Below are positions 17,867 through 41,850 of a stretch of 57,191 bases of DNA, in pieces (the stretch's first letter is position 1; the number at the start of each line of letters is the position of its first letter). The notes below the pieces were generated by a model. That model was not told the origin of the DNA. It was given only the letters and a program-made list of their open reading frames with translations, and ran no database searches. Origin of the DNA: a virus (lineage: Duplodnaviria; Caudoviricetes); IMG/VR virus record IMGVR_UViG_3300044724_009593, positions 1 to 57,191 of that record. One strand, written 5' to 3'. The translations under genes were made by a program, and so were the position numbers.

Positions 17867-18016
17867 CTATATCTTTAGGTATATGTCTAATAGGATAGCA
17901 AAAAATATTTGAATAAAAAATAATATAAAAAGTGTGCTAATAAATTTTCTCGTTGCACATCCTTTACAAACCTCTCTAATCAACTTTACATCATCTTTTA
18001 ATTTATGCAGCAACAT
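17867..18016 (-). CDS. Small CxxC + transmembrane peptide (49 aa), last gene of the long operon; not in ORF track
   Basis: MLLHKLKDDVKLIREVCKGCATRKFISTLFILFFIQIFFAILLDIYLKI*; starts 4 nt after upstream stop. Confidence 0.5.
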   Translation of the reverse strand: MLLHKLKDDVKLIREVCKGCATRKFISTLFILFFIQIFFAILLDIYLKI

Positions 18017-18020
18017 AAGT

Positions 18021-18800
18021 TTAACTTACTTTTAAATATAAAACTATTCTACATACCCATTTACAACTAAAATTTTGAAAATCCCCACTACAATGAATTT
18101 GATATGGATTTAAAGATTCAATTGATCCTAACTTCATTTTACTAACTTTTTCTATATCTAAGCCTAGTTGTAACTTCTTAAAATGACTTTGAAAATGATT
18201 AAAAATTGTAGGATCCTCTTCGTATAAAAATTTTTCATTGTGTTTATTTATGATATTTAATTCCTTGTCTTCTAGGTTATACGAATTATAAGTTAGATTA
18301 TTTTTTAATAATAACCTTGTGTATTCATAACCGCCTTCTGTGTAATAATTATAATGCTGCTTAAATTTAACCAAATAGGTTATCAGAGATGAAGTATCAT
18401 CATATTCTGTATCAAATGCTAACGGAATAATAAATATTTTCGCAATGCAGTATTTTTTATTATCTAAAAAAGGTAAATGGCCATCTATATGTGTATGAGT
18501 TGGTTGAACCAGTTTACACAAATGGATGTCTATATGATAATCTTGTTGAAATTCTAAATATTGTTCTAATTTATCCATTAACTTTGTTTTAATATCAGTT
18601 GACCTAATTGAACTTATACTTTGTTCTCGCCCGAAAACGTCAACATGATTTTGCCTCTCAGCATACCAAATATCTAAAAGGTCTTTTTGATCTAGAAAAT
18701 TATCAAGACTTAGATTAAAATCCTTAGATTTATTTTTAATGAAATTTCTATAATTTTTAATTTCAGTATATGAAAAATTCGACAAAGTTTCTGAAGACAT
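18021..18800 (-). CDS. Divergent 2OG-Fe(II) oxygenase-like protein (paralogue of 22477..23385)
   Basis: HIDGH and NPYQIHCSGDF facial-triad motifs. Confidence 0.6.
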   Translation of the reverse strand: MSSETLSNFSYTEIKNYRNFIKNKSKDFNLSLDNFLDQKDLLDIWYAERQNHVDVFGREQSISSIRSTDIKTKLMDKLEQYLEFQQDYHIDIHLCKLVQPTHTHIDGHLPFLDNKKYCIAKIFIIPLAFDTEYDDTSSLITYLVKFKQHYNYYTEGGYEYTRLLLKNNLTYNSYNLEDKELNIINKHNEKFLYEEDPTIFNHFQSHFKKLQLGLDIEKVSKMKLGSIESLNPYQIHCSGDFQNFSCKWVCRIVLYLKVS

Positions 18801-19482
18801 TTTTTCCTGTTAACAATTCACCACTAGCATGATATTGTGTTGGATTAAACAACAGAGCATCATTTACAGAATAATTCAGCATTGATTGGAAATCCTGTAA
18901 TATTAGATTATAAGTTTCTGCATTTAGTGTATAGCTTTTCCTGGTTAGCTTATTTATATATCCTGTAATTGAATTTTTATTTTCTACTGGTAGATAAGTT
19001 TTTATTACTTTGCATGATTCATTAGTAATACCATTGTAAAATTTTCCTTGATTAATCTTGCTCCATTCAATATTTTCGCCTAGAAAATAATTTAAGAATA
19101 TCAAATAGTTTTCGTCTTGTGCAGAACTAGCTAATAAATTTAATTTGCCTTTACAATCATAAATAAATGTTTTACTTGTGTGCAAAGAATAGTTGACACC
19201 TAATGCGTGGCCATCTGTGTGGAAATTAAGTGAAGATCCTATTGTCCTATGCCGTCCAAGCACCTTTTCTATTCTATTTAATTTAAGGTATTCACATAAA
19301 GCATTGTTAACTTTTTTATCAGCTCTAAATCGTAATGTTATATCAAACATAGCACCTATTTCATCACCCTCATTTTTGTTTAGGATTGGAAATTTGCTTT
19401 TGTCAATAACGTAATCAGCAAATAAATCTTTTAGCACTATTGGCTTATAAAAGTTAGCCTTTTGTTTTTGTGTAGAGTTCAT
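18763..19482 (-). CDS. Divergent 2OG-Fe(II) oxygenase-like protein
   Basis: HTDGH and FNPTQYHAS. Confidence 0.55.
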   Translation of the reverse strand: MNSTQKQKANFYKPIVLKDLFADYVIDKSKFPILNKNEGDEIGAMFDITLRFRADKKVNNALCEYLKLNRIEKVLGRHRTIGSSLNFHTDGHALGVNYSLHTSKTFIYDCKGKLNLLASSAQDENYLIFLNYFLGENIEWSKINQGKFYNGITNESCKVIKTYLPVENKNSITGYINKLTRKSYTLNAETYNLILQDFQSMLNYSVNDALLFNPTQYHASGELLTGKNVFRNFVEFFIY

Positions 19483-20446
19483 AAATTACCTTAACATCGT
19501 GAGTTAACAGTTTTTGTTTTTTTAATTTTTTTAAAAAATCATAAAATAAATCTTTACTAAAACTTACATTATTAACCTTTAAAGATTTTTCAAAACAACC
19601 TTTTGCATCGAATTGACTAATTTCTCTTATATTAAATTTTTTACAGAGCTTAAAAAAATCTTTTTCACCTCCTAGTGAGTTTTTGTCGATAGTTAAATGT
19701 AAAGTTAATTTTATTCTATTTCTTCTACATAATAGAAAAAAATCTTCTATAAAATTTAATTTTGTTTCGATATCATTTGATGTTAATTGTAATGTTGCAT
19801 AGTCTAATCTTTTATCAATATCTGATTTAAGCGTTAGATAAGATCCGGTTAAAATTGTATTATCAACGTTGGTAACATCATTTAGATTTACAAATTCTAT
19901 AGCATCGAATTTCTTGGTACTTGTAATTACGTCAATGTAGGATTTATTTTTTGACGTAATCTGGCATACTCTATTGTGATACCAATATTTACTTAGGTCT
20001 AAATTAAAGAAACTTAATTTTTTTAATGGTGTGACTGGAAAATCATTTAATATTTTAAATTGCATTTCCGGATATAAAATTGCGAATTTTTCTAAAAAAA
20101 TTTGTGATAATTGATCTTCATTTCTCACTAAGAAAATTTCTTCATAATCTACAAGGCATTCAGTAGCTCCTTGTAGTAGGGTTAAAAAACTATCTTCATC
20201 ACTTAAATATTTTTTCAATTCACATGCAGCGTTTTTATTGTGTAAAAAAGATTCATTTTTTCTTAAGGATAGATTTCTATTTTTAGGTGGTGGATATATT
20301 TTTTTACCACCTAATTCTATAATTTTATTGAGTTGCCAGTTTAGGTCAAAAAGATATATATCATCATTAAAATAATTAGCATGGATTAGGAAATTTATTG
20401 GAAAGTATTCAACTGGATGTAAAGGTAAATTTACAATCGCTTTCAT
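19454..20446 (-). CDS. Hypothetical protein, possibly a decayed B12-binding/radical SAM-like fold
   Basis: 330-aa ORF in operon; no CxxxCxxC; family call weak. Confidence 0.5.
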   Translation of the reverse strand: MKAIVNLPLHPVEYFPINFLIHANYFNDDIYLFDLNWQLNKIIELGGKKIYPPPKNRNLSLRKNESFLHNKNAACELKKYLSDEDSFLTLLQGATECLVDYEEIFLVRNEDQLSQIFLEKFAILYPEMQFKILNDFPVTPLKKLSFFNLDLSKYWYHNRVCQITSKNKSYIDVITSTKKFDAIEFVNLNDVTNVDNTILTGSYLTLKSDIDKRLDYATLQLTSNDIETKLNFIEDFFLLCRRNRIKLTLHLTIDKNSLGGEKDFFKLCKKFNIREISQFDAKGCFEKSLKVNNVSFSKDLFYDFLKKLKKQKLLTHDVKVIYELYTKTKG

Positions 20447-20640
20447 ACACTCCTTGCAACAATAATCACAATTTCATCGCTTAATAAATTTTTTGTTATT
20501 ACATTTTTGAGCAACTGTAAATTCTCATCATTCAAATCAGTAATCCGTCTTTGATTTACTATAATATTGGCTTGTTGCAGTATAGTGACTAATTCTTGTT
20601 CATTTTCATCGTTTGGTCCACTATATAAAACAGCTTCCAT
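20443..20640 (-). CDS. Small hypothetical protein
   Basis: 65 aa, coupled to neighbours. Confidence 0.6.
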   Translation of the reverse strand: MEAVLYSGPNDENEQELVTILQQANIIVNQRRITDLNDENLQLLKNVITKNLLSDEIVIIVARSV

Positions 20641-20643
20641 AAA

Positions 20644-21339
20644 TTACCTTTCTAAGTAAAGCACACCTGTTAACATGTATTTATAAAGTTTCTCTTTATG
20701 ATGGTATGATCCATGTAAATTATTACAAGGAAATACATGACAACTTCCATGGATAAAAGGTAGAATTTTATAAGTTTTTAGACCAGCTAGTTCTTTATCG
20801 TTACCAACATGTCCGTCTAAACCTAAGTCTAAGTCAGGCTTTGTATATTCTCTTGTATTGTTTTCTATACTATACAAAATAGGAATACTGACCAGCTTAT
20901 CAATATCTACAAGATGAAACATATTATGTGTTTTTTTAATGTAGAAATCATTTGTAGGTAAATTTTTATTATAATAAATTGTATCATTACCATCTGAACA
21001 ACATATGTTAAATCTTGTAATTACTTTTCCATGTTTACTTAGCCCGTTATCACTGTCAGTATGCGGAGGGTGTCCTCCTTCTTTAACCTTTTTTAGATAT
21101 GCATTATATTTTACGTTTAATGGCAATTTTAAAATAGAAAATAAATTTTTAAAATCCGAAAAATAATCTTGTATCAAATCCTGTGTTGCAATTGGATAAT
21201 GACTGTTATTTAAATCAAATTCGCTATGGTTACTATTGTTTATAATAGGTATGCAACCGTCACTATATTTGCTAATTATATTTTCAAAATCAAACTTTAT
21301 AAAATCTTGCAAAAAAATTTTAGTTTTATTTTCATGCAT
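20644..21339 (-). CDS. Divergent 2OG-Fe(II) oxygenase-like protein
   Basis: PHTDSD and FPCNNLHGS. Confidence 0.6.
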   Translation of the reverse strand: MHENKTKIFLQDFIKFDFENIISKYSDGCIPIINNSNHSEFDLNNSHYPIATQDLIQDYFSDFKNLFSILKLPLNVKYNAYLKKVKEGGHPPHTDSDNGLSKHGKVITRFNICCSDGNDTIYYNKNLPTNDFYIKKTHNMFHLVDIDKLVSIPILYSIENNTREYTKPDLDLGLDGHVGNDKELAGLKTYKILPFIHGSCHVFPCNNLHGSYHHKEKLYKYMLTGVLYLER

Positions 21340-22480
21340 AATAATTATCTATAATAGCTTTGAAGTCTACCTTTCTTTTCTCTTTCACTAGATCACAATA
21401 ATCAAAAAATGTGTTTTTGTAATGTTCACCAATGAAGTCTTCTTGTGAGAAGACATTTGATAAGGTATGATAATCAGCATTATTCATCAAATTTTTAACG
21501 TCATTTAAGATTTTTTGCTTCAAATTTTTATCTAGTATAGCTGGATGTACATAGCTGTTAGATTTATTAACTCCTGTTGCATAGCTATCTGTTATTGCAT
21601 ATCTAAAATTATAATAGATCCCCAATGTTTCGGCCCATGATATAAAATCTTTCAAACCTAACGCACTAAATGAACTAATCGTATAAACTAAGTTAAGCTC
21701 TATTGTTTTATAATTAGTAGCCAACTCATTAAATTTATCAATTATTTTTGTTACTTTATCCCATTTCGCAGGATATCTTACAAAATTAAATACATCATTT
21801 GTGCCATCTATACTAAGATTAATAACACTGCGTTTAAATTTAGGTAAAACCATTTCTAGTGTTTTATTAAAGATTGTACCATTTGTAAAGATATGTAGCT
21901 GTATTGTTTGCAGCTCTTTTGATTTTGTATTGACATAATTAAAAAAATCCCTATGTATCAACGGTTCGCCTCCATACAATGTAATTTTTTTTGCAGTATT
22001 CTTATTATATGCAATAAAATCATCGAATATTTTTTTTACTGCAATTAAATCTAATTTTTCTTCAGGATAATATACAGCATTTTTTTGATATCTGCTAAAA
22101 GCGTCAACATCTTCATTCCATTTACTACTAAAATGAGCGGAACACATAATACATTTCAAATTACATGTAGTGCTAAGTTTTAATTGTAATTCGGACGGAA
22201 ATCTTCTTGGAATTTTAATTACACCTTTTGAGTTAATTGTATCTTGTCTAAGGCTTCTTATATTATTAGATTCTTGTGCAAAACAAAAACTACAATTTTG
22301 TGGTGGTTTAGCATTAGGTAATAACATTTGTTGTCTTAGACTGTTCATTTTTTTAGAATTCCAAAAAGCTACCCAAGACTCTTCTTTATTTTCATAGGTA
22401 TCCCCTGATACACAACATAATCGCGCATTATTTCCTTGCACTTCTAGATTAAAAAATGGTATAGGACAATAATTTTTCAT
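21332..22480 (-). CDS. Radical SAM enzyme with N-terminal twitch/SPASM-like Cys cluster
   Basis: CNLKCIMC motif, GGEP, SIDG; N-terminal YCPIPF..LCC..NCSFC. Confidence 0.9.
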   Translation of the reverse strand: MKNYCPIPFFNLEVQGNNARLCCVSGDTYENKEESWVAFWNSKKMNSLRQQMLLPNAKPPQNCSFCFAQESNNIRSLRQDTINSKGVIKIPRRFPSELQLKLSTTCNLKCIMCSAHFSSKWNEDVDAFSRYQKNAVYYPEEKLDLIAVKKIFDDFIAYNKNTAKKITLYGGEPLIHRDFFNYVNTKSKELQTIQLHIFTNGTIFNKTLEMVLPKFKRSVINLSIDGTNDVFNFVRYPAKWDKVTKIIDKFNELATNYKTIELNLVYTISSFSALGLKDFISWAETLGIYYNFRYAITDSYATGVNKSNSYVHPAILDKNLKQKILNDVKNLMNNADYHTLSNVFSQEDFIGEHYKNTFFDYCDLVKEKRKVDFKAIIDNYYA

Positions 22481-23385
22481 TTTTTATTAATATAAAGGTT
22501 TAATCTAAGACATAATTTCGCATCAAAGTCCTTAAAATCACCACTACAATGTGTTTGATATGGATTTTGGACTAAAAACTCTCCATCTTTAAAATTATAG
22601 ATATTTTCTATAGTCAGTCCGTGCAAACAATTGAACAGAACCAAATCTAAATTAGGCAAGACCTTAGATGCTTCCTCTCTAAAATCAGTATATGCATCTA
22701 CCATTTTCCTAAAGAAAACAATATTTTGTTTAGTGATCCAACTGTTTTGTAAATTGAGCAAAAGAGTATTACCGTTATTATCTTCTATAGGTAAATCTTC
22801 AATGCCTGCTTTGTTGAAGTAATGTTTTCCTATAAAACGTTCATAAAATTGTGTTTGTTTAAATTCTTGTATTTGCTTTTTACGTAAAAAAGTTTTGTTA
22901 AATTCTAATCCGCCTAGCGAAGCTGTATAATTTAAATGTTGCTGAAATAATGTAAAAATTACGTTATCAAAAGAAAAATTTATATTGTTATTTTTAATTA
23001 TACACAATGGTATGAGTATTGTTTTAATTAAATATCCGCCTTCTTTACCATAAACAAGGTGTCCATCTATATGCGGCATAGTTGGTTCAACAATATATAA
23101 TACACATGGATCGCTTAAATGCAGTTTAAAATTTTGGATTGGGAAATCTAATAAATGTGGTAAAATAAATTCCTGTATTGAATTGCGAAATATCGACGGA
23201 CAAGGTAACGTAAATGATACACCCTTAGATACCTTACTTTTGTTTACATCCCTTGTTAATTCCCATATATGATTTTCAAAATAGTTAACAATTTGTTTTC
23301 TAATGGCCTTAGGTATAACATTACTGAAAATTTTATTTGGAAATTTTATTTCATCCTTTAATCTGCTATAAAACACCTTATCCAT
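22477..23385 (-). CDS. Divergent 2OG-Fe(II) oxygenase-like protein
   Basis: PHIDGH and NPYQTHCSGDF. Confidence 0.6.
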   Translation of the reverse strand: MDKVFYSRLKDEIKFPNKIFSNVIPKAIRKQIVNYFENHIWELTRDVNKSKVSKGVSFTLPCPSIFRNSIQEFILPHLLDFPIQNFKLHLSDPCVLYIVEPTMPHIDGHLVYGKEGGYLIKTILIPLCIIKNNNINFSFDNVIFTLFQQHLNYTASLGGLEFNKTFLRKKQIQEFKQTQFYERFIGKHYFNKAGIEDLPIEDNNGNTLLLNLQNSWITKQNIVFFRKMVDAYTDFREEASKVLPNLDLVLFNCLHGLTIENIYNFKDGEFLVQNPYQTHCSGDFKDFDAKLCLRLNLYINKK

Positions 23386-31252: not shown

Positions 31253-31254
31253 TT

Positions 31255-33461: not shown

Positions 33462-33464
33462 ATT

Positions 33465-34786: not shown

Positions 34787-34795
34787 TTATTTTTT

Positions 34796-35083: not shown

Positions 35084-35096
35084 TAAATAAATCCTT

Positions 35097-35507: not shown

Positions 35508-36595
35508 TACCCTACCTTTATAATTTTTGTTGCCCAATTACTGAAATGCTTAAAGCCTGCCTTTATTACCATTAGATCGTTTGGATCTAAGTCTAAAGCT
35601 CTAATCTTAAATTGTCCTTGACCATTTACTAAATTTATTTTACTTTTAGCTAAGTACCCATTATTGGTTTTAACATATAAGTCTGTATCGTAATCATATA
35701 GTGTAATACCATCTGATGCAGCAGTTGTAGATAAAGTAACATTTATTATGCCAACTTCATTAGGTTGCAACATACTAGGTCCGTCTAAAATAATGTGAGG
35801 AATAGGTAAAGTAGAATAATCCGTGAGCATTGTTGGTGCATGGGTCAGTGTATTTAAATCAACATCTCCAGAAACACCAAATCCGTGCATCATACTAATA
35901 TTACAATATAGGCTTGCAGCAGTAAAAGGCATAGTTTTTTCAAATAAAAATAAACTTAAAATCCTTTGTCGCCAAAATCTTGGTTTGCGTTTAACAATAT
36001 TGTTATCAACAGTTTCGATTTGTGGATCAGTCTGGAACTGGTTCATTCTATCGTGCCTATTCCAGTTTATTTTAGTGTTGTGAGTAAATGTAAATTGGTT
36101 ATATGGAATGTGCCAATTATGACCTGCAAAATTATAATCAAATGACCACAGCATACAATCTTTGTACTCTGGAATACATTCCTGATTAATACGTCTACCT
36201 TCATCTAAACTTTCTTGACTCAGAGCTGGTTCAGTAGCAAAATTATGTGTTGTATTCCTTGCAATAATACCTTCCGCAGCACGTTCAATTTGAGCTGCAC
36301 CTACAAATTTTAACCATTTCCCCTCTAACTCTGACGCTATTAAATCTCCAAGGACAATCGAATATACATCTTGGTCATCTTGAGAAAATTCTAATTCTAA
36401 CCGGTGTCTAGTTAGCAGTGGGTGATCACTAGAATCAATTAAGTTGAATGTATTAGCATCTACACCAGGAATATAATCTGGATCATTTACCAACACATCT
36501 TTAAACATCCTTACTGTTAGCATATCATCATCTATATCAACAATATAATGAATGGTGTCAAAAAATGTATATCTATACTGAAGTTGTTGTTCCAT
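35507..36595 (-). CDS. Hypothetical tail-associated protein with C-terminal Ig-like domain
   Basis: 362 aa; beta-rich C-terminus GYLAKSKINLVNGQGQFKIRALDL..KAGF; coupled to the fibre gene. Confidence 0.7.
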   Translation of the reverse strand: MEQQLQYRYTFFDTIHYIVDIDDDMLTVRMFKDVLVNDPDYIPGVDANTFNLIDSSDHPLLTRHRLELEFSQDDQDVYSIVLGDLIASELEGKWLKFVGAAQIERAAEGIIARNTTHNFATEPALSQESLDEGRRINQECIPEYKDCMLWSFDYNFAGHNWHIPYNQFTFTHNTKINWNRHDRMNQFQTDPQIETVDNNIVKRKPRFWRQRILSLFLFEKTMPFTAASLYCNISMMHGFGVSGDVDLNTLTHAPTMLTDYSTLPIPHIILDGPSMLQPNEVGIINVTLSTTAASDGITLYDYDTDLYVKTNNGYLAKSKINLVNGQGQFKIRALDLDPNDLMVIKAGFKHFSNWATKIIKVG

Positions 36596-39500
36596 TTGAA
36601 TTTCCTAATTTCTTTTCTAGTTCATCGATTTTTTTGTCCATTTGTTTTAACGCTGCAAGTAGAACAACTGTAATTTTTTGATATTCTAATTTTAAAAATT
36701 CAGTAGATCCTTTTCTTGCTACTAATTCAGGAAAATATTTTTCTACATCCTGCGCCAAAAGTCCTATTTCAATATTGTCCTTTTTATTAAATAAAACCTT
36801 TGCTTCATTATTCCATTTAAACTTAACAGGATTTACATTACGGACAAAATCCATACCATCTTCAATCTCCTCAAGTACATCTTTTAATCTTGCATCTGAA
36901 GTATATTCTGATGTGATATCACCTGTAGCATTAATATTACCAGTTGCTGCTTCAAAGTAGATTGTAGAATTTCCGGCACTATCTTTAACAATGATGTCAT
37001 TGTTAGTTGCATTATCAAAGTACAAACCAGATTGGTTTGTACTTCCCCCAACACTATAATCCGTATGTTGAATTGCATCTGTAAATAATTTTTGTACAGA
37101 TGGTTCAGCTTGTAGATCAATAGTAATGTTACCATCTAAATCACTTAGAGTATCAATATTGCTTCCGCCAATAAATTGTATTGTTTGCCCGCCTGAAACT
37201 GCCCTGACAGTTGAATCGTCTCCCGTAATCCTCCAAACGCCGCTTCCGTCACCTACCGCTGTATTTGCGAACGTGATTGTTTTGTTTACATTATCAAAGC
37301 TAATTCCAATTCCTGGACCAGGTATCCATGTTAATGGCTCATGTCCTGTTGCAACTAAATCAATTGCTCCTTCAGTTTCCCATGTCCTGAAAGATGCCAT
37401 GCTAATTTTTACATCACGATTTCCCAAATCAGTGATGCTAAATCCACTTTCTTCATCAAACTTTATGGTTTTATTATCATCTACAACAGATTGCACGGTA
37501 TCTACACTATCAACCGTGTTTACATCTATACCAGCAAAGATAGTCAGTGAGCCATTACTTGCACTCTGTGTATAGACGTTTGTATCGCCTATAATTGATA
37601 ATGTATCCCCTGACCCTAATTCCCGTAAGACTGCATCGGTTCCAGTAAAATTAAAACTAAATGTTACATTTGAAATAGCATTATCAATATACAATTGTGT
37701 GATAGAATCGCTTGAAAGTAATAAACTAGACGTTGTTAATGCTCTTCCTATTGTACCATATTCTGTTTGCGTTAATGTTAGTGATCCGTCTGCTGCTAAA
37801 AAATATTCTTCATTAACAATTAAATTTTGTTGTCCAAAGGCAATTTGTCCATTTACATAAACCTGCCCGTCATTTGATGTAGCAATATTTTCTTTTGCTA
37901 TTCCAATGTAATCATCTGCATTACTAGTCGTGGTTGTAAAAGATGTGTTATATACAACCACTTCGCCTGTACCAGTAGCTTGATTTTTGTAGGCTATATA
38001 AACTGCGTTATTTGTTGAATCAGTTGTGGCATGCGACTCATAATAAGGATTATCTACCAAATCTGGTGCATCTAGGTTCAGTGCAGTTTTAGAAGAATTC
38101 AGTGTGCTGCTTATTGCATCGCCATTACCATTGGATACATCTTTATATACAAACACAATGCGATTCGTGTTTCTTACAAATGTAAGTGTTAAATCGCTAA
38201 CATTACCGTTATGAAAATCATTGACTCCATTTGCGCCAAAACCATTACCTATTACATTGACAACGACATAGCTTCCTTTTGTGTTTGTCGTATCTCTATA
38301 GGCAATTACGAGTTTATTCTCTTGTTGAACAATTGTGAGGGCAATTGTATCTTTTGATATAGTTGGTTCAATCGCTAGTTTGTCACTTGTGTTAAGCGTT
38401 AATATATTACCCGATATGCTTGCTGATAATAAGAACACCGGGCCTGCTGTTAATTTATAAGCTAAGATCATTAAATTTAAACTACTGTCAAAATCTAAAG
38501 AAAGTTCGCTGACAGCAACATTATCTATATCTTGGGCAGTTCCATACGTAAACAAAAGGCTACCATCTACTTCTCCTAGAAATGCTTTTGCTTTATTACT
38601 GTCACCATTATCGATATAGGTGATAAAAATTCTATTTTGTATTGGATCAAATTTAACGACAATATTATTATTACCAGCAGTAGCATTAAAAACGACAGGA
38701 GATTTCATAACTACCGACAATCCTGCTACTTCAACGACACGAGCAGTACCATTATAAAAAACCACAAAGCAATTTCTATTTGGAAGAAAAATAGAACTGG
38801 TAATATATCCAGTAGAATCTAATTGGACAGCACTACCAGTATCAATAGTTCCGTCATCTTTGAATTCTGCAACAACGATCTTAGTTTCATTGTTAGTTAT
38901 ATCATTATAGGTAACTATAGCTTTTTTATTATCATTATATGCTATAAAAATATCTTGATGATTTACAGTATTTTCAAATACCTTTGCTGTATTAGTTGTT
39001 CCTGCTGTATTGCTGTATGTAGCATAAACCGCTTCGATTTCACCATCTGATCGTAATGCTACAGGTTGTCCTTCCCTAACAAAGGAGTTTGCTGTAAATG
39101 TCGGAGACAGATCTGTGATGCCATAACCTGCAAAAGTGTTAGGTAAATTTAAAATTTTATCAAACGATGTCTCAGGAAATAATTGTATGTGAGTAGCACT
39201 TAAAGCTCTACCTGCAACTCCAAACTCAGTAGGTGTGGTAGACAATTGTCCATCAGCAGTGACATAATAAACTTCATTTGGTGTTAAATTTACTTGGGCT
39301 CTATCAACTGATCCTCTGAGATTTACTTTACCTTCTTCTCCAATTGTTGCATCATCATCGGCAATTCCAATAAATTTGTTAGCGTTTCCTCCAGCTGTAA
39401 CCTCACTCGTAAAAATTGTTACTATGCCTTTGTATGTCAAATTCACATCAGCATAAGCAACTACAGTTTTATTTTGAGAAGCATCAAATACGCTATGGAC

Positions 39501-41822
39501 GTAATCTACATCGTTGTTAGCACCATTTGCGAAAAGGAATTCATCTGTGAAAGTCATTGTGTAATTGTCTACATCAACAGTAGCAATTTTGATCTTCCCA
39601 ATTGAATCAGCTGCATAAGAAATAACAAATCTAACTTTCTCTATGTCGTACACAACTGCAGTTTCAGTAACTGTTCCAGAATCAAATTCAAAAGGAGAAC
39701 CAAAAGTAATAAGGCTTCCACTTAAACTACCTAAGACTGCATAACCTTTTGATGAATTACCTCCATCAACATAAGTTAGCAAAAATCTATCTAAAGTGTC
39801 GCTCCAAGCTAAACTGATATTAGTTACAGGTCCGCTATTATTAGAAAATACATAGTGTGGCCCAACACTGAAACTTGTGCCAGTTGCATCTGTCCATATT
39901 AAATTAGCATAACCATATCCAGTGGCACCGTCTTGATACACTAGTAAAGAAAAATCATCAGCTACAACGCCATCGCCTGGTACATTACTAACACTCGTAA
40001 TATGAGACATTGTTTCAGCAGTGTTAATGCTCATACCCGACAAGTAACCCAATGTTACTGTATTTCCTATTACGGAAGCTAGTCTTACAAAACCTCTATT
40101 TGATTCCCCCCTATAGGAAATGACTAAAACACCTGCCAGTTCATCGTAAGTAATCGAATTATATATACCCTGGAAACCATTTGAAAATTCTATCGGAGTT
40201 CCGTAATTTATTATTTTTGTACTTGGATTATAAGTACCAACTACTACATATCCTTTATTAGAATTATTAACATCGGTGTACGCTATTGCAATTCTACTGC
40301 TTGGCATATATGTAACAGATACAAAATCAACTTCATCTTGGTAAAATAAAGCGCGGCCTCCGTAACTTGCCAAACCGTTACTAATCTCGCCTATCCGAGC
40401 GTAACCATAACCTGTTGTTGCTAGATTTTTATAAACTATTACATGCGTATTATCACTGTCATTATAAGCTGCAGCTAGATCGTATACTTCTTCACCAGTA
40501 TCGTTAGCAAAGTTAATAGGAACTGAGTTGCTACTAGGCGTTAAGATGTCACCTCCTACAAATTGTCCTGTAGGTGTTATCTTATTATTTTGATCCGTTA
40601 CAACTAACTCTCCTTTTGTTACAGCTTCACTAGCTTCATAGAATTTTTGATTATCACCAAGTGTTTCTTGTAAGCTATAGGTTCCGTCACCGTCTGATGT
40701 CAGAACTAAACCTTGAGTTGCGCTAGAACTTGTATCTACATCTGATAAACTAGTAAGGGAACCAGCTGTGAAGGTTTGGAAGGAAAACGATCCATCACCA
40801 TCCGAAGCTAATACTTGTCCTAGTGTTGATGTTGCATCAACGTCAATTAATCCTGTAAGTGTTGTACTGACACTTGCTGCCCATGTAAAAGTACCATTTC
40901 CATTTGCATATAGAATATTATCTTGGGAAGGAGAATTAGTAATTTCAAGTAGATCACTAACATTGCCGGTAAACGCATCAGTAATTCCGTATCCTGCTAT
41001 TGTAGTAGGTACGTTTAATAGACTCGTAAACTCTCCGTCGAAATGGGCTGCACTTACCGCAGCTATTTGGGCGTCAACATAAGTTTTAGTTGTATAGTTT
41101 ACATTATTATTTAGAACATCTATATTATCATTAGGTTGTACTGCTGATTCTGCTAAATTTCCTTGTGTATTTGTAGCTGCATCAGTTATTCCATATCCAG
41201 CTAGTGTAGTTGGAAGGTTTAGCAAACTGCTGAACTGAGCATCAAATGCAGTAGCAGCGAGTTGGTATGGTGATAAATCTGGACCTTCAATCGTTAAGTT
41301 GCCTTCACTATCACTATAAGTTGCTATATTTCTAATTCCAGAAAATTTAATACTTTCTGTTATAGGAACCGAAATTATTGTACTATCGTCAGCTGCTATC
41401 TTAATAGGAATACTAGAAAAATCAACGTCGATACGGATGTCGTTTAGGTTATCCCTTGTAAGATTTATTCCCCAACCTTCTTTCAGCTGTATGTTTGTAG
41501 GTAAGGATGTATCAACCGATGCTGCATAACTTGTAATAACATCTACACTATTGGCAACATTGCTCCTAACTTCTACTTTTGTATTATAGCCTAGTACTAA
41601 TTTTTCACCAGTTGACACCGCTCTCAAACTAGTTCGGTTAGGCAATAAGACGTTTTTTAGGTAATAGGCACCATTTATCACGATGTCAACTGTAATAATC
41701 AAATCTGTGACATTAGTCAAACTCAACCCTATTAAGGTATATCTTTCAAATGCGGTTGAGGAAAGGACTTCTGTTAACTCTGTGCCTATATTTTTTACTA
41801 CTCTATTACCAATTACTGCCAT
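36573..41822 (-). CDS. Long tail fibre/receptor-binding protein with duplicated propeller-like region and C-terminal S74 chaperone
   Basis: 1749 aa; PTTxAGYGITD repeats; two copies of a module ending FIGIA/YIGIA..NL..NExY..ADGxL..TE(F/Y)G..GRAL; TSDARLK..GLLAQDVEKYFPELV. Confidence 0.9.
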   Translation of the reverse strand: MAVIGNRVVKNIGTELTEVLSSTAFERYTLIGLSLTNVTDLIITVDIVINGAYYLKNVLLPNRTSLRAVSTGEKLVLGYNTKVEVRSNVANSVDVITSYAASVDTSLPTNIQLKEGWGINLTRDNLNDIRIDVDFSSIPIKIAADDSTIISVPITESIKFSGIRNIATYSDSEGNLTIEGPDLSPYQLAATAFDAQFSSLLNLPTTLAGYGITDAATNTQGNLAESAVQPNDNIDVLNNNVNYTTKTYVDAQIAAVSAAHFDGEFTSLLNVPTTIAGYGITDAFTGNVSDLLEITNSPSQDNILYANGNGTFTWAASVSTTLTGLIDVDATSTLGQVLASDGDGSFSFQTFTAGSLTSLSDVDTSSSATQGLVLTSDGDGTYSLQETLGDNQKFYEASEAVTKGELVVTDQNNKITPTGQFVGGDILTPSSNSVPINFANDTGEEVYDLAAAYNDSDNTHVIVYKNLATTGYGYARIGEISNGLASYGGRALFYQDEVDFVSVTYMPSSRIAIAYTDVNNSNKGYVVVGTYNPSTKIINYGTPIEFSNGFQGIYNSITYDELAGVLVISYRGESNRGFVRLASVIGNTVTLGYLSGMSINTAETMSHITSVSNVPGDGVVADDFSLLVYQDGATGYGYANLIWTDATGTSFSVGPHYVFSNNSGPVTNISLAWSDTLDRFLLTYVDGGNSSKGYAVLGSLSGSLITFGSPFEFDSGTVTETAVVYDIEKVRFVISYAADSIGKIKIATVDVDNYTMTFTDEFLFANGANNDVDYVHSVFDASQNKTVVAYADVNLTYKGIVTIFTSEVTAGGNANKFIGIADDDATIGEEGKVNLRGSVDRAQVNLTPNEVYYVTADGQLSTTPTEFGVAGRALSATHIQLFPETSFDKILNLPNTFAGYGITDLSPTFTANSFVREGQPVALRSDGEIEAVYATYSNTAGTTNTAKVFENTVNHQDIFIAYNDNKKAIVTYNDITNNETKIVVAEFKDDGTIDTGSAVQLDSTGYITSSIFLPNRNCFVVFYNGTARVVEVAGLSVVMKSPVVFNATAGNNNIVVKFDPIQNRIFITYIDNGDSNKAKAFLGEVDGSLLFTYGTAQDIDNVAVSELSLDFDSSLNLMILAYKLTAGPVFLLSASISGNILTLNTSDKLAIEPTISKDTIALTIVQQENKLVIAYRDTTNTKGSYVVVNVIGNGFGANGVNDFHNGNVSDLTLTFVRNTNRIVFVYKDVSNGNGDAISSTLNSSKTALNLDAPDLVDNPYYESHATTDSTNNAVYIAYKNQATGTGEVVVYNTSFTTTTSNADDYIGIAKENIATSNDGQVYVNGQIAFGQQNLIVNEEYFLAADGSLTLTQTEYGTIGRALTTSSLLLSSDSITQLYIDNAISNVTFSFNFTGTDAVLRELGSGDTLSIIGDTNVYTQSASNGSLTIFAGIDVNTVDSVDTVQSVVDDNKTIKFDEESGFSITDLGNRDVKISMASFRTWETEGAIDLVATGHEPLTWIPGPGIGISFDNVNKTITFANTAVGDGSGVWRITGDDSTVRAVSGGQTIQFIGGSNIDTLSDLDGNITIDLQAEPSVQKLFTDAIQHTDYSVGGSTNQSGLYFDNATNNDIIVKDSAGNSTIYFEAATGNINATGDITSEYTSDARLKDVLEEIEDGMDFVRNVNPVKFKWNNEAKVLFNKKDNIEIGLLAQDVEKYFPELVARKGSTEFLKLEYQKITVVLLAALKQMDKKIDELEKKLGNSNGTTTSV

Positions 41823-41850
41823 AAAATTTCCTATTACCAGTATTTATTTG

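What the first reader, a model, noticed from the sequence alone, without database searches (positions are those of the whole stretch)
17867..41847. Candidate phage RiPP-like system that matures a poly-(Cys-X) virion fibre
Seen: from the tail fibre (41822) down to 17867, every gene overlaps or lies within 13 nt of the next, behind a late-type ATAAATA motif at 41841, so this reads as one ~24 kb unit. Order: long fibre, Ig-like accessory protein, three small Cys-rich fibre-like proteins (one with the Cys-X tract), then a radical SAM/SPASM enzyme, a second radical SAM, three halogenase-like flavoproteins, about nine 2OG-Fe(II)-oxygenase-like proteins and a GT9-like transferase. Established: SPASM radical SAM enzymes modify Cys-rich peptides (sactipeptide and ranthipeptide thioethers); marine phages often carry 2OG oxygenases and halogenase-like genes near fibre genes, mostly without known substrates. 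Inference: precursor and tailoring enzymes are co-encoded and the product is a chemically decorated virion appendage (receptor-ligand mimic, metal chelator or protective coat), not a secreted small molecule. No transporter or leader peptidase is evident; the S74 domain could supply the processing.
Basis: partly seen in the sequence, partly recalled or inferred. Interest (0 to 1): 0.95.

Follow-up and report, generated by a model that had tools for sequence, protein, structure and literature searches.

The report
Cysteine-repeat phage fibre tip with maturase
A marine cyanophage encodes a short tail-fibre protein ending in 25 alternating cysteines, and fibre genes with such cysteine-repeat tips sit beside the same radical SAM enzyme family in many unrelated phages, which suggests that these phages chemically modify the tip they may use to touch their host.

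Summary
The central observation is real. Window 17867..41822 (minus strand) is a tightly packed block in a T4-like cyanomyovirus contig. It encodes a 246-aa protein with an N-domain, an (X-Cys)25 tract and an S74 autochaperone. It also encodes a full SPASM radical SAM enzyme, a twitch radical SAM enzyme, two intact halogenases and four clear 2OG oxygenases.

The strongest result is comparative:
- Viral contigs: 31 of 37 loci with a real NCNC(xC)n-tipped ORF carry a homologue of the 26145 enzyme on the same strand. Only 1 of 43 control loci does.
- Bacterial genomes, starting from the enzyme: 54 of 80 loci have an upstream Cys-X-tipped ORF.
- Cultured phages: the pairing recurs in Achromobacter phage JWF and Ralstonia phage RSP15.

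The enzyme folds like the thioether-forming CteB. I could not find the pairing in NCBIfam or in the searched literature.

The pairing of the SPASM enzyme with the Cys-X fibre tip is therefore well supported, although no modification has been shown. The wider claim, that all ~20 enzymes decorate this fibre, rests on synteny in three related contigs. Halogenase and 2OG families also occur in phages without such fibres. The cyanophage tract is an extreme Lys-rich version (25 Cys against a median of 5).

The parts
41841..41847 (-). ATAAATA, a T4-late-promoter-like motif 19 nt upstream of the fibre ATG
   Evidence: Sequence read. The motif is not enriched in the window (25 found, 42 expected). No minus-strand copy lies between 41841 and 20684.
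36573..41822 (-). Long tail fibre, 1749 aa, with a C-terminal S74 intramolecular chaperone
   Evidence: Pfam PF13884 at residues 1642-1701, E 4e-13. 49-51% identical homologues in L002/L003.
35507..36595 (-). 362-aa multi-domain beta-sandwich protein with a C-terminal Ig-like domain; a recurrent partner in the module
   Evidence: AF2 pLDDT 73, pTM 0.76. PDB matches are only Ig-like/beta-sandwich domains. Seven uncharacterised viral proteins match at TM 0.36-0.68 in BFVD. Relatives in 20 of 36 module loci and in L001-L003 and L007. No Pfam, PHROG or NCBIfam family.
35097..35507 (-). Small Cys-rich fibre-like protein (136 aa from the ATG, 8 Cys)
   Evidence: Shares the N-terminal MAFKINN motif. 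Analogous Cys-rich MAF... ORFs at the same place in L001-L003.
34796..35083 (-). Small Cys-rich fibre-like protein (95 aa, 4 Cys)
34046..34786 (-). Short fibre-like protein: N-domain (residues 1-80), (X-Cys)25 tract (81-130), Trp131, S74 autochaperone (132-199 and beyond)
   Evidence: Homologues with a conserved tract in L001-L003 and P0001-P0003. The trimer model passes only through the S74 part.
34397..34546 (-). DNA of the Cys-X tract: an imperfect hexanucleotide (TGYAAR)n repeat
   Evidence: A near-identical allele, P0001, has 12 Cys instead of 25. Metagenome contigs break and pile up here.
33465..34049 (-). 2OG-Fe(II) oxygenase, P4H-type paralogue, HxD and distal His present
   Evidence: phrog_61; family membership; motifs.
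32916..33461 (-). Paralogue of the 2OG oxygenase family without an HxD motif (probably not catalytic)
31255..32919 (-). Degenerate halogenase-like protein (554 aa)
   Evidence: hhalign 93.9% to the halogenase family over ~100 N-terminal residues. Lacks GxGxxG, WxWxIP and Lys. No Pfam hit.
30626..31252 (-). 208-aa protein of unknown family, seen only in this window
   Evidence: No family. No homologue in L001-L005.
28863..30626 (-). Flavin-dependent halogenase-like enzyme (587 aa)
   Evidence: Pfam PF04820, E 2.6e-69; phrog_2928; motifs.
28673..28885 (-). 70-aa ORF
   Evidence: 39.5% identical over 43 aa to an ORF at the same place in L001. No Pfam hit.
27478..28671 (-). Second flavin-dependent halogenase-like enzyme (397 aa)
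   Evidence: Pfam PF04820, E 1.7e-54; motifs. Weak hit to QhpG (NF049967, E 8e-5, far below its cut-off).
26145..27485 (-). Radical SAM/SPASM enzyme (446 aa), the conserved partner of Cys-X-tipped fibres
   Evidence: AF2 pLDDT 87. Best fold matches: CteB Z 23.0, ChlB 22.2, anSME 21.0. Co-occurrence tests.
25549..26148 (-). 2OG oxygenase paralogue (HxD present, no later His)
   Evidence: phrog_61.
24893..25552 (-). 219-aa protein with HxD...H spacing; unverified oxygenase; seen only in this window
24244..24906 (-). 2OG-Fe(II) oxygenase
   Evidence: Pfam PF13640, E 3.6e-14. 49-60% identical homologues in L001-L003.
23378..24247 (-). GT9-like glycosyltransferase candidate (289 aa)
   Evidence: Atlas lead, feature score 0.97, structural TM 0.82 to a Glyco_transf_9 cluster. 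No Pfam hit. Homologues in L001-L003.
22477..23385 (-). Paralogue of 18021 (302 aa) with HxD...H
21332..22480 (-). N-terminal-twitch radical SAM enzyme
   Evidence: NF033640, 212.6 bits against a cut-off of 170; Pfam Radical_SAM. Homologues in L002-L005.
20644..21339 (-). 231-aa protein with HxD...H; conserved in L004/L005
   Evidence: The only Pfam hit is a marginal Pox_D5 match.
20443..20640 (-). 65-aa ORF, unknown
19454..20446 (-). 330-aa protein, unknown, seen only in this window
18763..19482 (-). 239-aa protein with HxD...H, seen only in this window
18021..18800 (-). 259-aa protein, DUF6445/2OG-like by Atlas lead only
   Evidence: Homologues in L001-L005.
17867..18016 (-). 49-aa ORF at the edge of the block, where conservation with related contigs returns
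   Evidence: 83% identical in L004/L005.

Best explanation
The window is part of a T4-like cyanomyovirus. Its tail-fibre region holds a low-GC, fast-diverging island. The core of the island is a module found in many unrelated phages:
- (i) a fibre or fibre-like protein whose mature C-terminal tip is an alternating Cys-X tract, usually starting N-C-N-C;
- (ii) a beta-sandwich/Ig-like protein;
- (iii) often a 2OG-Fe(II) oxygenase;
- (iv) a dedicated radical SAM/SPASM enzyme.

Proposed mechanism:
1. The 246-aa protein from 34046..34786 is made as a precursor.
2. The SPASM enzyme from 26145..27485 acts on the Cys tract. By analogy with its nearest folds and with known Cys-to-Asn/Asp crosslinking enzymes, it most probably forms thioether crosslinks between Cys sulfur and carbon atoms of neighbouring residues.
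3. The S74 domain trimerises the chains and then cuts itself off after Trp131.
4. The modified, very Lys-rich (X-Cys)25 needle is left as the distal tip of a short virion fibre that contacts the host surface.

In this cyanophage lineage the module has been enlarged with halogenases, extra oxygenases, a GT9-like protein and a second radical SAM enzyme. These may decorate the same protein or the neighbouring small Cys-rich proteins.

Shown: gene content, motifs, folds, and co-occurrence across lineages. Inferred: that the tract is the substrate, the chemistry, the order of steps, virion location, and the role of the accessory enzymes.
For: (1) Conserved cassette. Three related viral contigs (L001; L002/L005; L003/L004) keep the same gene order. 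Cassette proteins are 25-67% identical, while the proteins 14898, 13872 and 12727 beyond its 17867 end are 94-100% identical. All three homologues keep the tract, and every Cys column is invariant while X varies.

(2) Reverse test. A scan of viral contigs for NCNCxCxCxC returned 80 loci.
- In 37 of them the match is a real ORF with the tract within 25 aa of the stop (35), before a Hint domain (1) or before an S74 domain (1).
- 31 of these 37 carry a homologue of the 26145 enzyme on the same strand, mostly within 2.6 kb downstream and at most 4.3 kb (23-43% identity over all their radical SAM hits; 34-43% for most of the nearest ones).
- Only 1 of 43 control loci (out of frame, internal or junk) does. 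Fisher p = 4.6e-15.
- Four of the 6 misses are truncated loci and 2 are junk ORFs.

(3) Forward test. 80 bacterial-genome loci were chosen only by the enzyme.
- 54 have a same-strand ORF within 3 kb upstream carrying at least 4 alternating Cys, and in 49 the tract lies within 12 aa of the stop.
- 5 loci lack upstream sequence.
- The same pattern on the opposite strand occurs in 4 of 80.

(4) Cultured phages.
- Achromobacter phage JWF gp028 is a fibre with ...RQNCNCDCNCNCSC followed by a Hint domain, two genes upstream of its radical SAM gene.
- Ralstonia phage RSP15 ORF048, a side tail fibre, ends ...NTNCQCGN. It is followed by an ORF that to my eye has a 35507-like C-terminus (no alignment was run), and then by the radical SAM gene.

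(5) Tree. On a tree of 111 enzymes the association spans all deep branches. A single sub-clade of 11 instead sits beside ~65-70-aa ORFs, most of them with one or a few Cys in N/D/S-C motifs (e.g. SNCDCGCG, SDCSxISP).

(6) Enzyme.
- CX3CX2C plus the full SPASM Cys set is present; 9 of these 10 Cys are invariant across 15 homologues and the tenth (C399) is nearly invariant, 90% or more.
- Best fold matches are CteB (Z 23.0, rmsd 4.3, 363 aligned, model residues 3-432), ChlB (22.2), anSME (21.0) and TigE (18.3).
- Best sequence matches among solved structures are the same enzymes.

(7) Tract composition outside the cyanophage group: X is Asn 65%, Asp 11%, Ala 11%. The viral half of that set was selected for NCNC, which biases the figure. 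From recall, Asn and Asp are the acceptor residues of PapB-, NxxcB- and QhpD-type thioethers.

(8) Oxygenase. A 2OG oxygenase (PF13759, 3 of 4 tested, E 6e-6 to 1.4e-3) lies between fibre and enzyme in 10 of 36 module loci.

(9) Trimer model. ipSAE 0.73 against a best control of 0.27. That mark was reached by 20 of 30 solved pairs and 1 of 23 single chains. The runs agree in at least 31% of contacts and the partner pLDDT is at least 48. Contacts lie only in residues 136-240. Because it resembles solved S74 trimers, this pass may come from memory.
Against: - No modification has been observed; all evidence is genomic or structural prediction.
- The enzyme scores far below every NCBIfam equivalog cut-off (PapB 69.8 against 340; anSME 56.6 against 349; QhpD 63 against 453), so the chemistry cannot be transferred from any of them.
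- The cyanophage tract is mostly Lys-Cys, not Asn/Asp-Cys, so the thioether-acceptor argument covers only its first two repeats.
- The tract and the N-domain were modelled at low confidence (pLDDT about 50).
- No canonical leader peptide, leader peptidase or exporter is present, and an RRE was not demonstrated. The model shows only a three-stranded N-terminal sheet.
- 20 of 80 enzyme-selected bacterial loci show no tract.
- Halogenase and 2OG families are common in cyanophages and pelagiphages without the SPASM enzyme or any Cys-X tract. Published readings give them metabolic or DNA-repair roles (PMC3037559, passages read).
- Many loci come from related prophages, so the counts overstate the number of independent events.
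- Radical SAM enzymes are oxygen-labile, whereas the oxygenases and halogenases need O2 (general knowledge).
Confidence: 0.6

Rival explanations
1. Mosaic island. Only the fibre, the Ig-like protein and the SPASM enzyme (perhaps with one oxygenase) work together. The halogenases, most oxygenases, the GT9-like protein and the twitch radical SAM enzyme are ordinary cyanophage island genes. They would act on host metabolites, 2-oxoglutarate pools, DNA or cell-surface glycans, and sit here only because this is a hotspot for gene gain. This rivals the 'one 24 kb pathway' claim, not the core pairing.
For: - Halogenase homologues occur in 65 phage records (33 Synechococcus, 15 'Cyanophage', 6 Prochlorococcus, 2 Pelagibacter), while none of the 34 records with a homologue of the SPASM enzyme is a cyanophage.
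- In HTVC008M the halogenase lies between the terminase subunit genes. In S-PM2 it lies among tRNA and hli genes. Neither locus has a tract of at least 4 alternating Cys within 9 kb.
- According to passages of PMC3037559, 14 of 16 cyanomyoviruses carry several 2OG oxygenases, and metabolic or DNA-repair roles are proposed there.
- Only 1 of the 37 true tract loci from the viral scan has a halogenase hit (L093).
- Five window genes (30626, 24893, 19454, 18763, 27478 as an extra copy) have no counterpart in the three syntenic relatives.
- GC is 26-31% across 18-34 kb against 35-37% in the flanks.
Against: - Gene order for the halogenase-like, oxygenase, GT9-like, 18021-like and twitch radical SAM genes is kept in three contigs at 25-60% protein identity, with overlapping stops and starts.
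- A 2OG oxygenase recurs inside the module in 10 unrelated loci.
- Halogenase-like genes also lie beside Cys-tract proteins and radical SAM genes in L015 (two copies) and L093.
- Between 41841 and 20684 there is no further minus-strand ATAAATA, and only one weak terminator-like site (at 23507), so nothing clearly splits the block.
Confidence: 0.4
2. Metal- or disulfide-stapled needle. The alternating Cys would face the three-fold axis of a trimeric beta-structure. They would bind metal ions or form interchain disulfides, as the His-x-His motifs of the T4 gp37 tip bind iron (recalled). The radical SAM enzyme would act on something else, such as another fibre protein, the Ig-like partner or a cofactor.
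For: - The strict two-residue periodicity with invariant Cys and variable X is what an inward-facing strand would give.
- The protein carries a trimerising S74 domain, and its trimer model passes.
- The composition recalls metallothionein-like C-x-C strings (recalled).
Against: - It does not explain why a SPASM enzyme follows the tract gene in 31 of 37 viral loci and 54 of 80 bacterial loci, across fibres whose N-terminal domains are unrelated.
- It does not explain why a sister sub-clade of the enzyme sits by small Cys-bearing peptides.
- The tract itself was not confidently modelled.
Confidence: 0.12
3. Same pairing, different chemistry. The SPASM enzyme oxidises Cys to formylglycine, as anSME does on a whole protein, or performs another radical reaction such as epimerisation or C-C bond formation. 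In the Lys-rich cyanophage tract the resulting aldehydes could then crosslink with Lys amines.
For: - anSME is the third-best fold match (Z 21.0, 318 aligned) and the third-best sequence match among solved structures.
- anSME acts on a folded-protein precursor rather than a small peptide (recalled).
- Lys alternates with Cys in the window tract.
- The best sequence match, TigE, makes C-C bonds (entry title; paper seen only in the search listing).
Against: - The anSME recognition motif (C/S-x-P/A-x-R, recalled) is absent.
- Lys is rare outside the cyanophage lineage (2 of 483 X positions).
- The anSME NCBIfam score is 56.6 against a cut-off of 349.
Confidence: 0.1
4. The tract is a slippage-prone simple-sequence repeat of no specific function, or an assembly artefact, inside an otherwise ordinary small fibre gene.
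For: - It is a hexanucleotide repeat.
- A near-identical allele has 12 rather than 25 Cys.
- Metagenome contigs break at the repeat.
Against: - The repeat is imperfect, with synonymous changes that preserve Cys and mostly Lys.
- Tracts are kept in homologues only 42-55% identical.
- Equivalent tracts with other codons and other X residues recur in over 80 loci, always at the mature C-terminus.
Confidence: 0.03

Closest known systems
Thioether-forming radical SAM/SPASM peptide maturases (CteB/thermocellin, PapB/freyrasin, SCIFF and other Cys-rich precursor systems)
   Same: - CX3CX2C plus two auxiliary-cluster Cys sets.
- Best fold match is CteB, Z 23.0 over model residues 3-432.
- PapB is the best full-length NCBIfam alignment (residues 81-400).
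- The enzyme gene lies beside a gene whose product has a repetitive Cys motif.
   Different: - All equivalog scores are far below cut-off.
- The putative substrate is a 100-1700-aa structural fibre protein, not a short leader-core peptide.
- The modified part lies at the C-terminal tip. It is released by a C-terminal S74 or Hint domain, or simply ends the protein.
- No exporter or leader peptidase is present.
- The chemistry is untested.
Quinohemoprotein amine dehydrogenase maturation (QhpD radical SAM/SPASM, QhpG flavoprotein, QhpC subunit)
   Same: A SPASM enzyme that (recalled) makes Cys-to-Asp/Glu thioethers in a protein subunit that stays part of a larger assembly, together with a halogenase-fold flavoprotein acting on a Trp of the same subunit. 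The window combines the same two enzyme families. The tract ends in Trp131. 27478 gives a weak QhpG hit (E 8e-5).
   Different: The QhpD score is 63 against a cut-off of 453, and the QhpG score 21.7 against 240. There is no dehydrogenase context. The window flavoproteins keep the halogenase WxWxIP and Lys motifs.
Anaerobic sulfatase-maturating enzyme (anSME)
   Same: A SPASM enzyme that modifies a Cys of a full-length protein rather than a small peptide (recalled). Fold Z 21.0.
   Different: There is no sulfatase and no C/S-x-P-x-R motif. The score is 56.6 against 349.
T4 gp37 long-tail-fibre tip with His-x-His iron sites (recalled, not tested)
   Same: An alternating-residue motif at the distal tip of a trimeric phage fibre, a precedent for inward-facing alternate residues forming a stapled needle.
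   Different: The window has Cys instead of His and 25 repeats instead of a few. A dedicated enzyme is encoded alongside. Metal binding is untested.
S74 intramolecular chaperone fibres and tailspikes (endosialidase, T5 pb1 type)
   Same: Pfam PF13884 scores above cut-off in both 34046 and 36573. The Ser-Asp-x-x-Leu-Lys start is present. The trimer model contacts lie in this domain.
   Different: Here the chaperone directly follows a poly-(Cys-X) tract, so cleavage would expose that tract as the tip.
Cyanomyovirus hypervariable islands rich in 2OG oxygenases and PrnA-like halogenases
   Same: The same protein families in a low-GC island near structural genes. These families are described as common in 16 cyanomyoviruses (PMC3037559, passages).
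   Different: Isolates in the phage collection lack the SPASM enzyme and the Cys-X protein. There were 0 cyanophage records among 34 enzyme hits, and 0 records covering at least 80% of the tract protein.

Membership tests
Radical SAM/SPASM subfamily (for 26145..27485) | CX3CX2C cluster motif in a Radical_SAM domain | tested here: met
   CNYKCEYC at residues 89-96. Pfam PF04055, E 1.3e-13. Invariant in 15 homologues.
Radical SAM/SPASM subfamily (for 26145..27485) | Seven-Cys SPASM motif: CX9-15GX4C, CX2CX5CX3C and a final Cys (motif recalled) | tested here: met
   C333...G347...C352, then C386-C389-C395-C399, then C411. TIGR04085 scores above its cut-off in relatives L070, L141 and L140.
Radical SAM/SPASM subfamily (for 26145..27485) | Fold like solved SPASM enzymes | tested here: met
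   CteB Z 23.0 (rmsd 4.3, 363 aligned), ChlB 22.2, anSME 21.0, TigE 18.3. Viperin-type enzymes score about 14.5.
PapB / SCIFF / QhpD / anSME / CcpM equivalogs | Score above the curated NCBIfam cut-off | tested here: not met
   Best scores: 73.2 (TIGR04280, cut-off 400), 69.8 (PapB, 340), 63 (QhpD, 453), 56.6 (anSME, 349), 50.8 (SCIFF, 425). The same holds for three relatives.
RiPP biosynthetic system | Short precursor with a leader and a core peptide | tested here: not met
   The putative substrate is 246 aa, with an ~80-aa N-domain and a C-terminal S74 domain. In other lineages it is 85-1700 aa of fibre. Only one sub-clade of 11 enzymes has ~65-70-aa peptides.
RiPP biosynthetic system | RiPP recognition element in the maturase | tested here: inconclusive
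   The model has a confident three-stranded sheet at residues 7-27 followed by a disordered linker. The CteB alignment spans residues 3-432, but no winged-helix fold was tested separately.
RiPP biosynthetic system | Proteolytic release of the modified part | tested here: inconclusive
   S74 (window, L093) or Hint (JWF, L050) autoprocessing domains follow the tract. In most loci the tract simply ends the protein. Cleavage itself was not tested.
RiPP biosynthetic system | Demonstrated post-translational modification | not testable with these tools
   Needs mass spectrometry.
Peptidase_S74 intramolecular chaperone (34046 and 36573) | Pfam PF13884 above the gathering score | tested here: met
   44.4 bits (cut-off 22) at residues 132-199, and 49.9 bits at residues 1642-1701.
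Peptidase_S74 intramolecular chaperone (34046 and 36573) | Ser and Lys of the cleavage motif S-D-x-x-L-K (recalled) | tested here: met
   WSDEKLK at residues 131-137, and TSDARLK in the long fibre.
Flavin-dependent halogenases | Pfam Trp_halogenase plus GxGxxG, WxWxIP and the catalytic Lys (motifs recalled) | tested here: met
   27478 and 28863 meet all of these. 31255 meets none and is only remotely related.
2OG-Fe(II) oxygenases | Family model hit and an HxD/E...H triad | tested here: inconclusive
   Met for 24244 (Pfam) and 33465 (phrog_61), which both have the triad. 25549 lacks the distal His and 32916 lacks HxD. 24893, 22477, 20644, 18763 and 18021 show motif spacing only, with no model hit.
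Glycosyltransferase family 9 (23378) | Pfam PF01075 hit | tested here: inconclusive
   No Pfam hit up to E 5. The Atlas feature score is 0.97, and structural TM is 0.82 to a cluster in which 46% of members carry PF01075.
N-terminal-twitch radical SAM (21332) | NF033640 above its cut-off | tested here: met
   212.6 bits against 170, covering residues 2-378.
T4 gp37-type metal-stapled fibre tip | His-x-His motifs binding iron on the three-fold axis (recalled) | tested here: not met
   The tract is Cys-x-Cys and has no His. Metal binding cannot be tested here.

The most novel reading that the evidence does not exclude
Phages of several unrelated lineages would enzymatically crosslink the distal tip of a receptor-binding fibre with a dedicated radical SAM/SPASM enzyme. 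The lineages are T4-like cyanomyoviruses, Ackermannviridae, JWF-like siphoviruses, and prophages of Rhodobacteraceae, Comamonadaceae, Bradyrhizobium and Ferrovibrio. This would be a class of RiPP-like chemistry applied to a virion structural protein, which I could not find described.

The cyanophage in this window would carry the extreme form:
- a 25-repeat, polycationic Cys-Lys needle;
- further hydroxylated, halogenated and perhaps glycosylated by the co-inherited enzymes;
- with a length that changes in whole hexanucleotide units between near-identical alleles (25 against 12 Cys), tuning adsorption.
Probability: 0.4. Interest if true: 0.95.

Novelty: new variant of a known kind. Interest (0 to 1): 0.88.

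Why it matters
**New chemistry on a virion protein.** If the tip of a phage receptor-binding fibre is chemically crosslinked by its own radical SAM enzyme, host recognition depends partly on chemistry that cannot be read from the fibre sequence. That bears on host-range prediction, phage engineering and structural work on fibres.

**A large new substrate class.** SPASM enzymes would gain a structural-protein substrate class. The enzyme profile finds 722 clusters (50% identity) at E <= 1e-30. No curated family name exists.

**Directly testable.** The idea can be tested in cultured systems such as Achromobacter phage JWF and prophages of cultured marine Rhodobacteraceae.

**A possible substrate for cyanophage oxygenases and halogenases.** For marine cyanophages, it offers a concrete candidate substrate for some of the many 2OG oxygenases and halogenases whose role has been open since the first genomes.

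Tried and rejected
**Searches that found nothing**
- Megablast of 26000-42000 against phage isolates: no match.
- tblastn of 35507 against phages: no match.
- tblastn of the tract protein against phages: only the S74 part matched, and 0 of 44 records covered at least 80% of the query.
- PHROGs, Pfam and NCBIfam gave nothing for 18021, 18763, 19454, 22477, 23378, 24893, 30626, 31255, 35507, 34796 and 35097.

**Remote homology and structure**
- hhalign of shallow in-session profiles linked only 31255 to the halogenases. The absence of other links is weak evidence, because the profiles held 1-25 sequences.
- Foldseek of the 35507 model against the PDB gave only generic Ig-like or beta-sandwich matches at TM <= 0.25. 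I do not name a function for this protein.
- Longer relatives of the enzyme (P0032, P0068, P0105, P0026, P0047, P0078) were read for fusions to a fibre or a tract. One is a double radical SAM enzyme and two carry what looks by eye like an acetyltransferase tail. None has a Cys tract.

**Promoters and terminators**
- The sigma-70 and terminator scans were at chance level: 114 promoter-like sites against 119 expected, and 8 terminator-like sites against 6.9.
- ATAAATA is below chance. I therefore do not claim a mapped promoter or a single transcript.

**Trimer model.** It says nothing about the tract, because confident contacts lie only in residues 136-240.

**Sequencing runs.** All runs were contigs.
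- RNA run X24 gave 4 identical short contigs over 34331-34569 only. This does not show transcription.
- Uncovered bins in other runs are not evidence of absence.

**Literature.** No paper linking radical SAM enzymes to Cys-rich tail-fibre tips appeared in the searches. Searches served other questions.
- PMC12801897 and PMC7159879 were read as passages and proved irrelevant to the pairing.

**Considered and dropped**
- DNA hypermodification as the role of the SPASM enzyme: dropped because the enzyme sits in fibre modules, not replication modules, in JWF and RSP15.
- The plus-strand ORF 34062..34604 as the real gene: dropped because the minus-strand frame carries S74 and has homologues.

- In the tree, row L060 was labelled 'CXn C-term' by default, although its tract ORF was not detected (the pattern match lies at the locus edge).
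- Rows L196 and L207 were labelled 'none seen', although a tract lies downstream of the enzyme.

Full report
**What the window is.**
- The 57,191-base window is the whole contig held for this genome.
- Its ribonucleotide reductase is about 70% identical to those of T4-like Synechococcus myoviruses. Fibre-type genes flank the region of interest. It is therefore a T4-like cyanomyovirus, but not close to any isolate: megablast of 26000-42000 found nothing.
- GC falls to 26-31% between about 18 and 34 kb, against 35-37% on either side.
- The sequence occurs in several estuary metagenomes.

**Checking the observation.**
- Twenty-five minus-strand ORFs run from 41822 down to 17867, with gaps of -38 to +13 nt.
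- The long fibre (36573..41822, 1749 aa) ends in a Peptidase_S74 domain.
- 35507..36595 gives a moderately confident AF2 model (pLDDT 73) made of beta-sandwich domains. Its only PDB matches are Ig-like modules, and it matches seven uncharacterised viral proteins in BFVD.
- Three small proteins follow. They share the N-terminal motif MA-x-x-I-G/N-N-x-x-V with the long fibre and are Cys-rich: 8 of 136, 4 of 95 and 26 of 246 residues.
- The third, 34046..34786, has 25 Cys alternating with mostly Lys at residues 81-130, then Trp131, then S74 starting at Ser132.
- The tract DNA is an imperfect hexanucleotide repeat whose differences are synonymous. The frame is supported by the S74 hit and by homologues.
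- The enzymes:
  - 26145 is a radical SAM enzyme with a complete SPASM Cys set.
  - 21332 is a twitch radical SAM enzyme scoring above its NCBIfam cut-off.
  - 27478 and 28863 are halogenase-family flavoproteins with intact motifs, while 31255 is a degenerate relative.
  - 24244, 25549, 32916 and 33465 form one 2OG-oxygenase family, and only two of them have a full metal triad.
  - Five more proteins have only HxD...H spacing.
  - 23378 is GT9-like by an Atlas lead only.
- The ATAAATA motif at 41841 is present but is rarer in the window than chance predicts.

**Close relatives keep the cassette.**
- Three other viral contigs hold homologues of the tract protein. BLAST maps show the whole cassette in the same order: fibre, 35507-like, small Cys-rich ORFs, tract protein, two oxygenases, degenerate halogenase-like, halogenase, SPASM enzyme, two oxygenases, GT9-like, 18021-like, twitch radical SAM, 20644-like.
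- Cassette proteins are 25-67% identical. Genes just beyond its 17867 end (14898, 13872, 12727) are 94-100% identical.
- All three tract homologues keep Y-(S/T)-x-N-C-N-C-K-C-K-C... Every Cys is invariant and X varies among K, Q, A, L and others.
- The island therefore diverges fast as a unit but keeps its content. These contigs are one lineage, so this counts as a single observation of linkage.

**The enzyme is tied to Cys-X fibre tips far beyond this lineage.**
- Among phage isolates, the best homologues of 26145 (36-39% identity) are in Ralstonia phage RSP15 (Ackermannviridae) and in Achromobacter phages JWF and 2-1. In RSP15 and JWF, the two I examined, the gene lies in the tail-fibre module.
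- JWF gp028 is a fibre with ...RQNCNCDCNCNCSC directly followed by a Hint domain.
- RSP15 ORF048, a side tail fibre, ends ...NTNCQCGN. To my eye, the C-terminus of ORF047 resembles that of 35507; no alignment was run.
- Another viral lineage (L007/L008) has a fibre ending ...NYCTYCSYCSYCCHDCCQDC, then a 35507-like gene and two radical SAM genes.
- A further lineage (L015 and relatives) has a 202-aa MALGKMF... protein ending in four CTCNCNY repeats, amid about seven radical SAM genes and two halogenase-like genes.

- In 43 loci the match lies in an ORF of at least 40 aa.
- In 37 of those it is a plausible protein, with the tract within 25 aa of the stop (35), before a Hint domain (L050) or before an S74 domain (L093).
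- Three matches are internal and three are low-complexity junk.
- A radical SAM homologue (BLASTP E <= 1e-5 against the query set) is present in 31 of the 37. It is always on the same strand, mostly within 2.6 kb downstream and at most 4.3 kb. Most of the nearest hits are 34-43% identical to 26145, with E-values from 1e-61 to 1e-108.
- It is present in 1 of the other 43 loci. That locus is L060, where the match lies at the locus edge and is probably a real case. Fisher p = 4.6e-15.
- Of the six misses, four loci end too soon and two ORFs are junk.

**Forward test.** I searched one genome per prokaryotic species with a profile of 15 enzymes. The search found 199 relatives and kept 80 loci.
- 54 of 80 have a same-strand ORF ending within 3 kb upstream with at least 4 alternating Cys, and in 49 the tract lies within 12 aa of the stop.
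- 1 locus has the tract downstream, 5 lack upstream sequence and 20 show none.
- The same pattern on the opposite strand appears in 4 of 80 loci.
- Hosts named in the records include Rhodobacteraceae, Comamonadaceae, Variovorax, Bradyrhizobium and Ferrovibrio.
- About eleven of the 20 loci without a tract form one well-supported sub-clade (support 99). There the enzyme follows a ~65-70-aa ORF ending in motifs such as ...SNCDCGCG... or ...SSNDCSAISPFPEPKK..., beside what look like an ATP-grasp protein and a ~770-aa protein. In other words, a conventional small-peptide cluster uses the same enzyme clade and a related N/D/S-Cys motif.

**The recurrent module.**
- I clustered same-strand ORFs of 36 module loci (31 of the 37 true-tract loci with the enzyme, 4 of the 6 without it, and L060). 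The radical SAM enzyme is present in 31 loci, a JWF-like fibre family in 20, a 35507-like protein in 20, a lambda-J-like central fibre in 12, and a ~200-aa protein in 10.
- The ~200-aa protein matches Pfam 2OG-FeII_Oxy_5 in 3 of 4 members tested, at or below the gathering score.
- The usual order is fibre with tract, Ig-like protein, oxygenase, radical SAM enzyme.
- Outside the cyanophage group, tracts have 4-9 Cys (median 5). X is Asn 65%, Ala 11% and Asp 11%, and Lys accounts for 2 of 483 positions. A Tyr is common two residues before the tract. The viral half of that set was selected for NCNC, which biases the Asn figure.
- The window's 25-Cys, Lys-rich tract is therefore an extreme variant.

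**What the enzyme looks like.**
- The AF2 model is confident (pLDDT 87). Its best structural matches are:
  - CteB: Z 23.0, rmsd 4.3, 363 residues aligned, spanning model residues 3-432;
  - ChlB: Z 22.2;
  - anSME: Z 21.0;
  - TigE: Z 18.3.
  Viperin-type enzymes score about 14.5.
- A sequence search of solved structures gives the same set: TigE 7e-22, CteB 7e-21, anSME 1e-17.
- No NCBIfam equivalog is reached by the window enzyme or by three relatives. Only the generic SPASM domain model passes, in the relatives.
- The fibre, Ig-like and oxygenase partners match no NCBIfam model.
- The clade is large: 722 representative clusters at E <= 1e-30.

**Mechanism.**
- The tract is the only feature shared by the partner proteins, whose N-terminal parts are otherwise unrelated. 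It always ends up at the mature C-terminus. I therefore take it to be the substrate.
- The nearest characterised enzymes abstract hydrogen next to or from Cys-containing motifs. From recall, PapB-, NxxcB- and QhpD-type enzymes link Cys sulfur to carbons of Asp, Asn or Glu, which are the commonest X residues here. Thioether crosslinking is therefore my first choice, at roughly one chance in three. Oxidation to formylglycine or another radical reaction are alternatives.
- The S74 domain should trimerise the chains and then cleave before Ser132 (family knowledge, recalled).
- The trimer model passed: ipSAE 0.73 against a best control of 0.27. That mark was reached by 20 of 30 solved pairs and 1 of 23 single chains. 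The runs agree in at least 31% of contacts and the partner pLDDT is at least 48. Confident contacts lie only in residues 136-240, and the pass may reflect memory of solved S74 trimers.
- The mature product would be a ~131-residue chain ending ...CKCKCW, carrying about 20 Lys per chain in the tract. This would be a polycationic tip suited to anionic cell surfaces (inference).

**How far the rest of the block belongs.**
- For:
  - synteny at low identity in three contigs;
  - overlapping reading frames;
  - a 2OG oxygenase inside the general module;
  - halogenase-like genes beside Cys-tract proteins in L015 and L093.
- Against:
  - halogenase homologues are found in 65 phage records, and in HTVC008M and S-PM2 they sit in unrelated contexts with no Cys-X tract nearby;
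  - cyanophage isolates lack the SPASM enzyme;
  - 2OG oxygenases are near-universal in cyanomyoviruses and have been given other roles (PMC3037559, passages);
  - several window genes are absent from the syntenic relatives.
- I put the 'mosaic island' reading of the accessory genes at about 0.4.

**Extra observations.**
- A database protein, P0001, is otherwise almost identical to the window's protein but has 12 rather than 25 Cys. This could be real repeat-length polymorphism or an assembly collapse.
- In three estuary metagenomes, many contigs with unrelated flanks pile up on the repeat, and assemblies break there. This suggests many different Cys-Lys-repeat genes in those samples.

**Novelty and limits.**
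- Five full-text searches combining radical SAM or SPASM with tail fibre, receptor-binding protein, cysteine-rich, thioether, prophage or phage JWF returned nothing on this pairing.
- Everything here is inference from sequence, predicted structure and gene neighbourhood. No modification, virion location or transcript has been shown.

Noticed in passing
L140, L143, L161, L163, L168, L171, L172, L177, L187, L139, L160 (bacterial loci, about 200 nt upstream of the radical SAM gene): One sub-clade of the same enzyme (Variovorax, Ramlibacter, Polaromonas and relatives) follows a ~65-70-aa ORF. In most of these loci the ORF ends in ...S(S/N)DC(S/G)xISPxPxxKK... or ...NCDCGCG.... It sits beside what look like an ATP-grasp protein and a ~770-aa protein. 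This looks like an undescribed small-peptide RiPP cluster.
   Followed up: partly
L015 4104-4712 and surroundings (also L009-L016): A 202-aa protein ends in four CTCNCNY repeats. It sits among about seven radical SAM genes, two halogenase-like genes and sugar-modifying genes, in a separate viral lineage.
   Followed up: partly
P0001 compared with window 34397-34546: A near-identical allele of the tract protein has 12 Cys instead of 25 (a 26-residue difference, in whole Cys-X units). This is either repeat-length polymorphism or an assembly collapse.
   Followed up: no
window 34363-34576: In three estuary metagenomes, summed contig depth over the repeat is 10-100 times that of the flanks. Many contigs run on into unrelated sequence, so many other Cys-Lys repeat genes coexist in those samples.
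   Followed up: no
window 44099-44310: An 84-bp (2 x 42 bp) tandem repeat, 97% identical, lies inside fibre gene 43429..44661. It encodes repeated ...YNDLTDKPTLFSG / YNDLTNLPTLFSG units.
   Followed up: no
window 41851-43425: The 524-aa protein upstream of the long fibre has a CBM_5_12 carbohydrate-binding match at residues 192-219 (30.4 bits, cut-off 26.2).
   Followed up: no
window 20644-21339: Marginal Pfam Pox_D5 hit (23 bits, cut-off 21.4) in a protein that otherwise looks like an HxD...H oxygenase candidate. Probably spurious.
   Followed up: no
window 18000-34000: GC drops to 26-31% against 35-37% in the flanks. The drop coincides with the part of the contig that diverges most from related contigs.
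   Followed up: partly
L141-L169, L205, L212 (Rhodobacteraceae genomes): Very uniform prophage-like loci. A ~90-200-aa ORF ending ...NCNCNCRC lies about 635 nt upstream of the radical SAM gene. Several copies occur per genome in some strains, for example three loci in one Thalassobacter genome.
   Followed up: no
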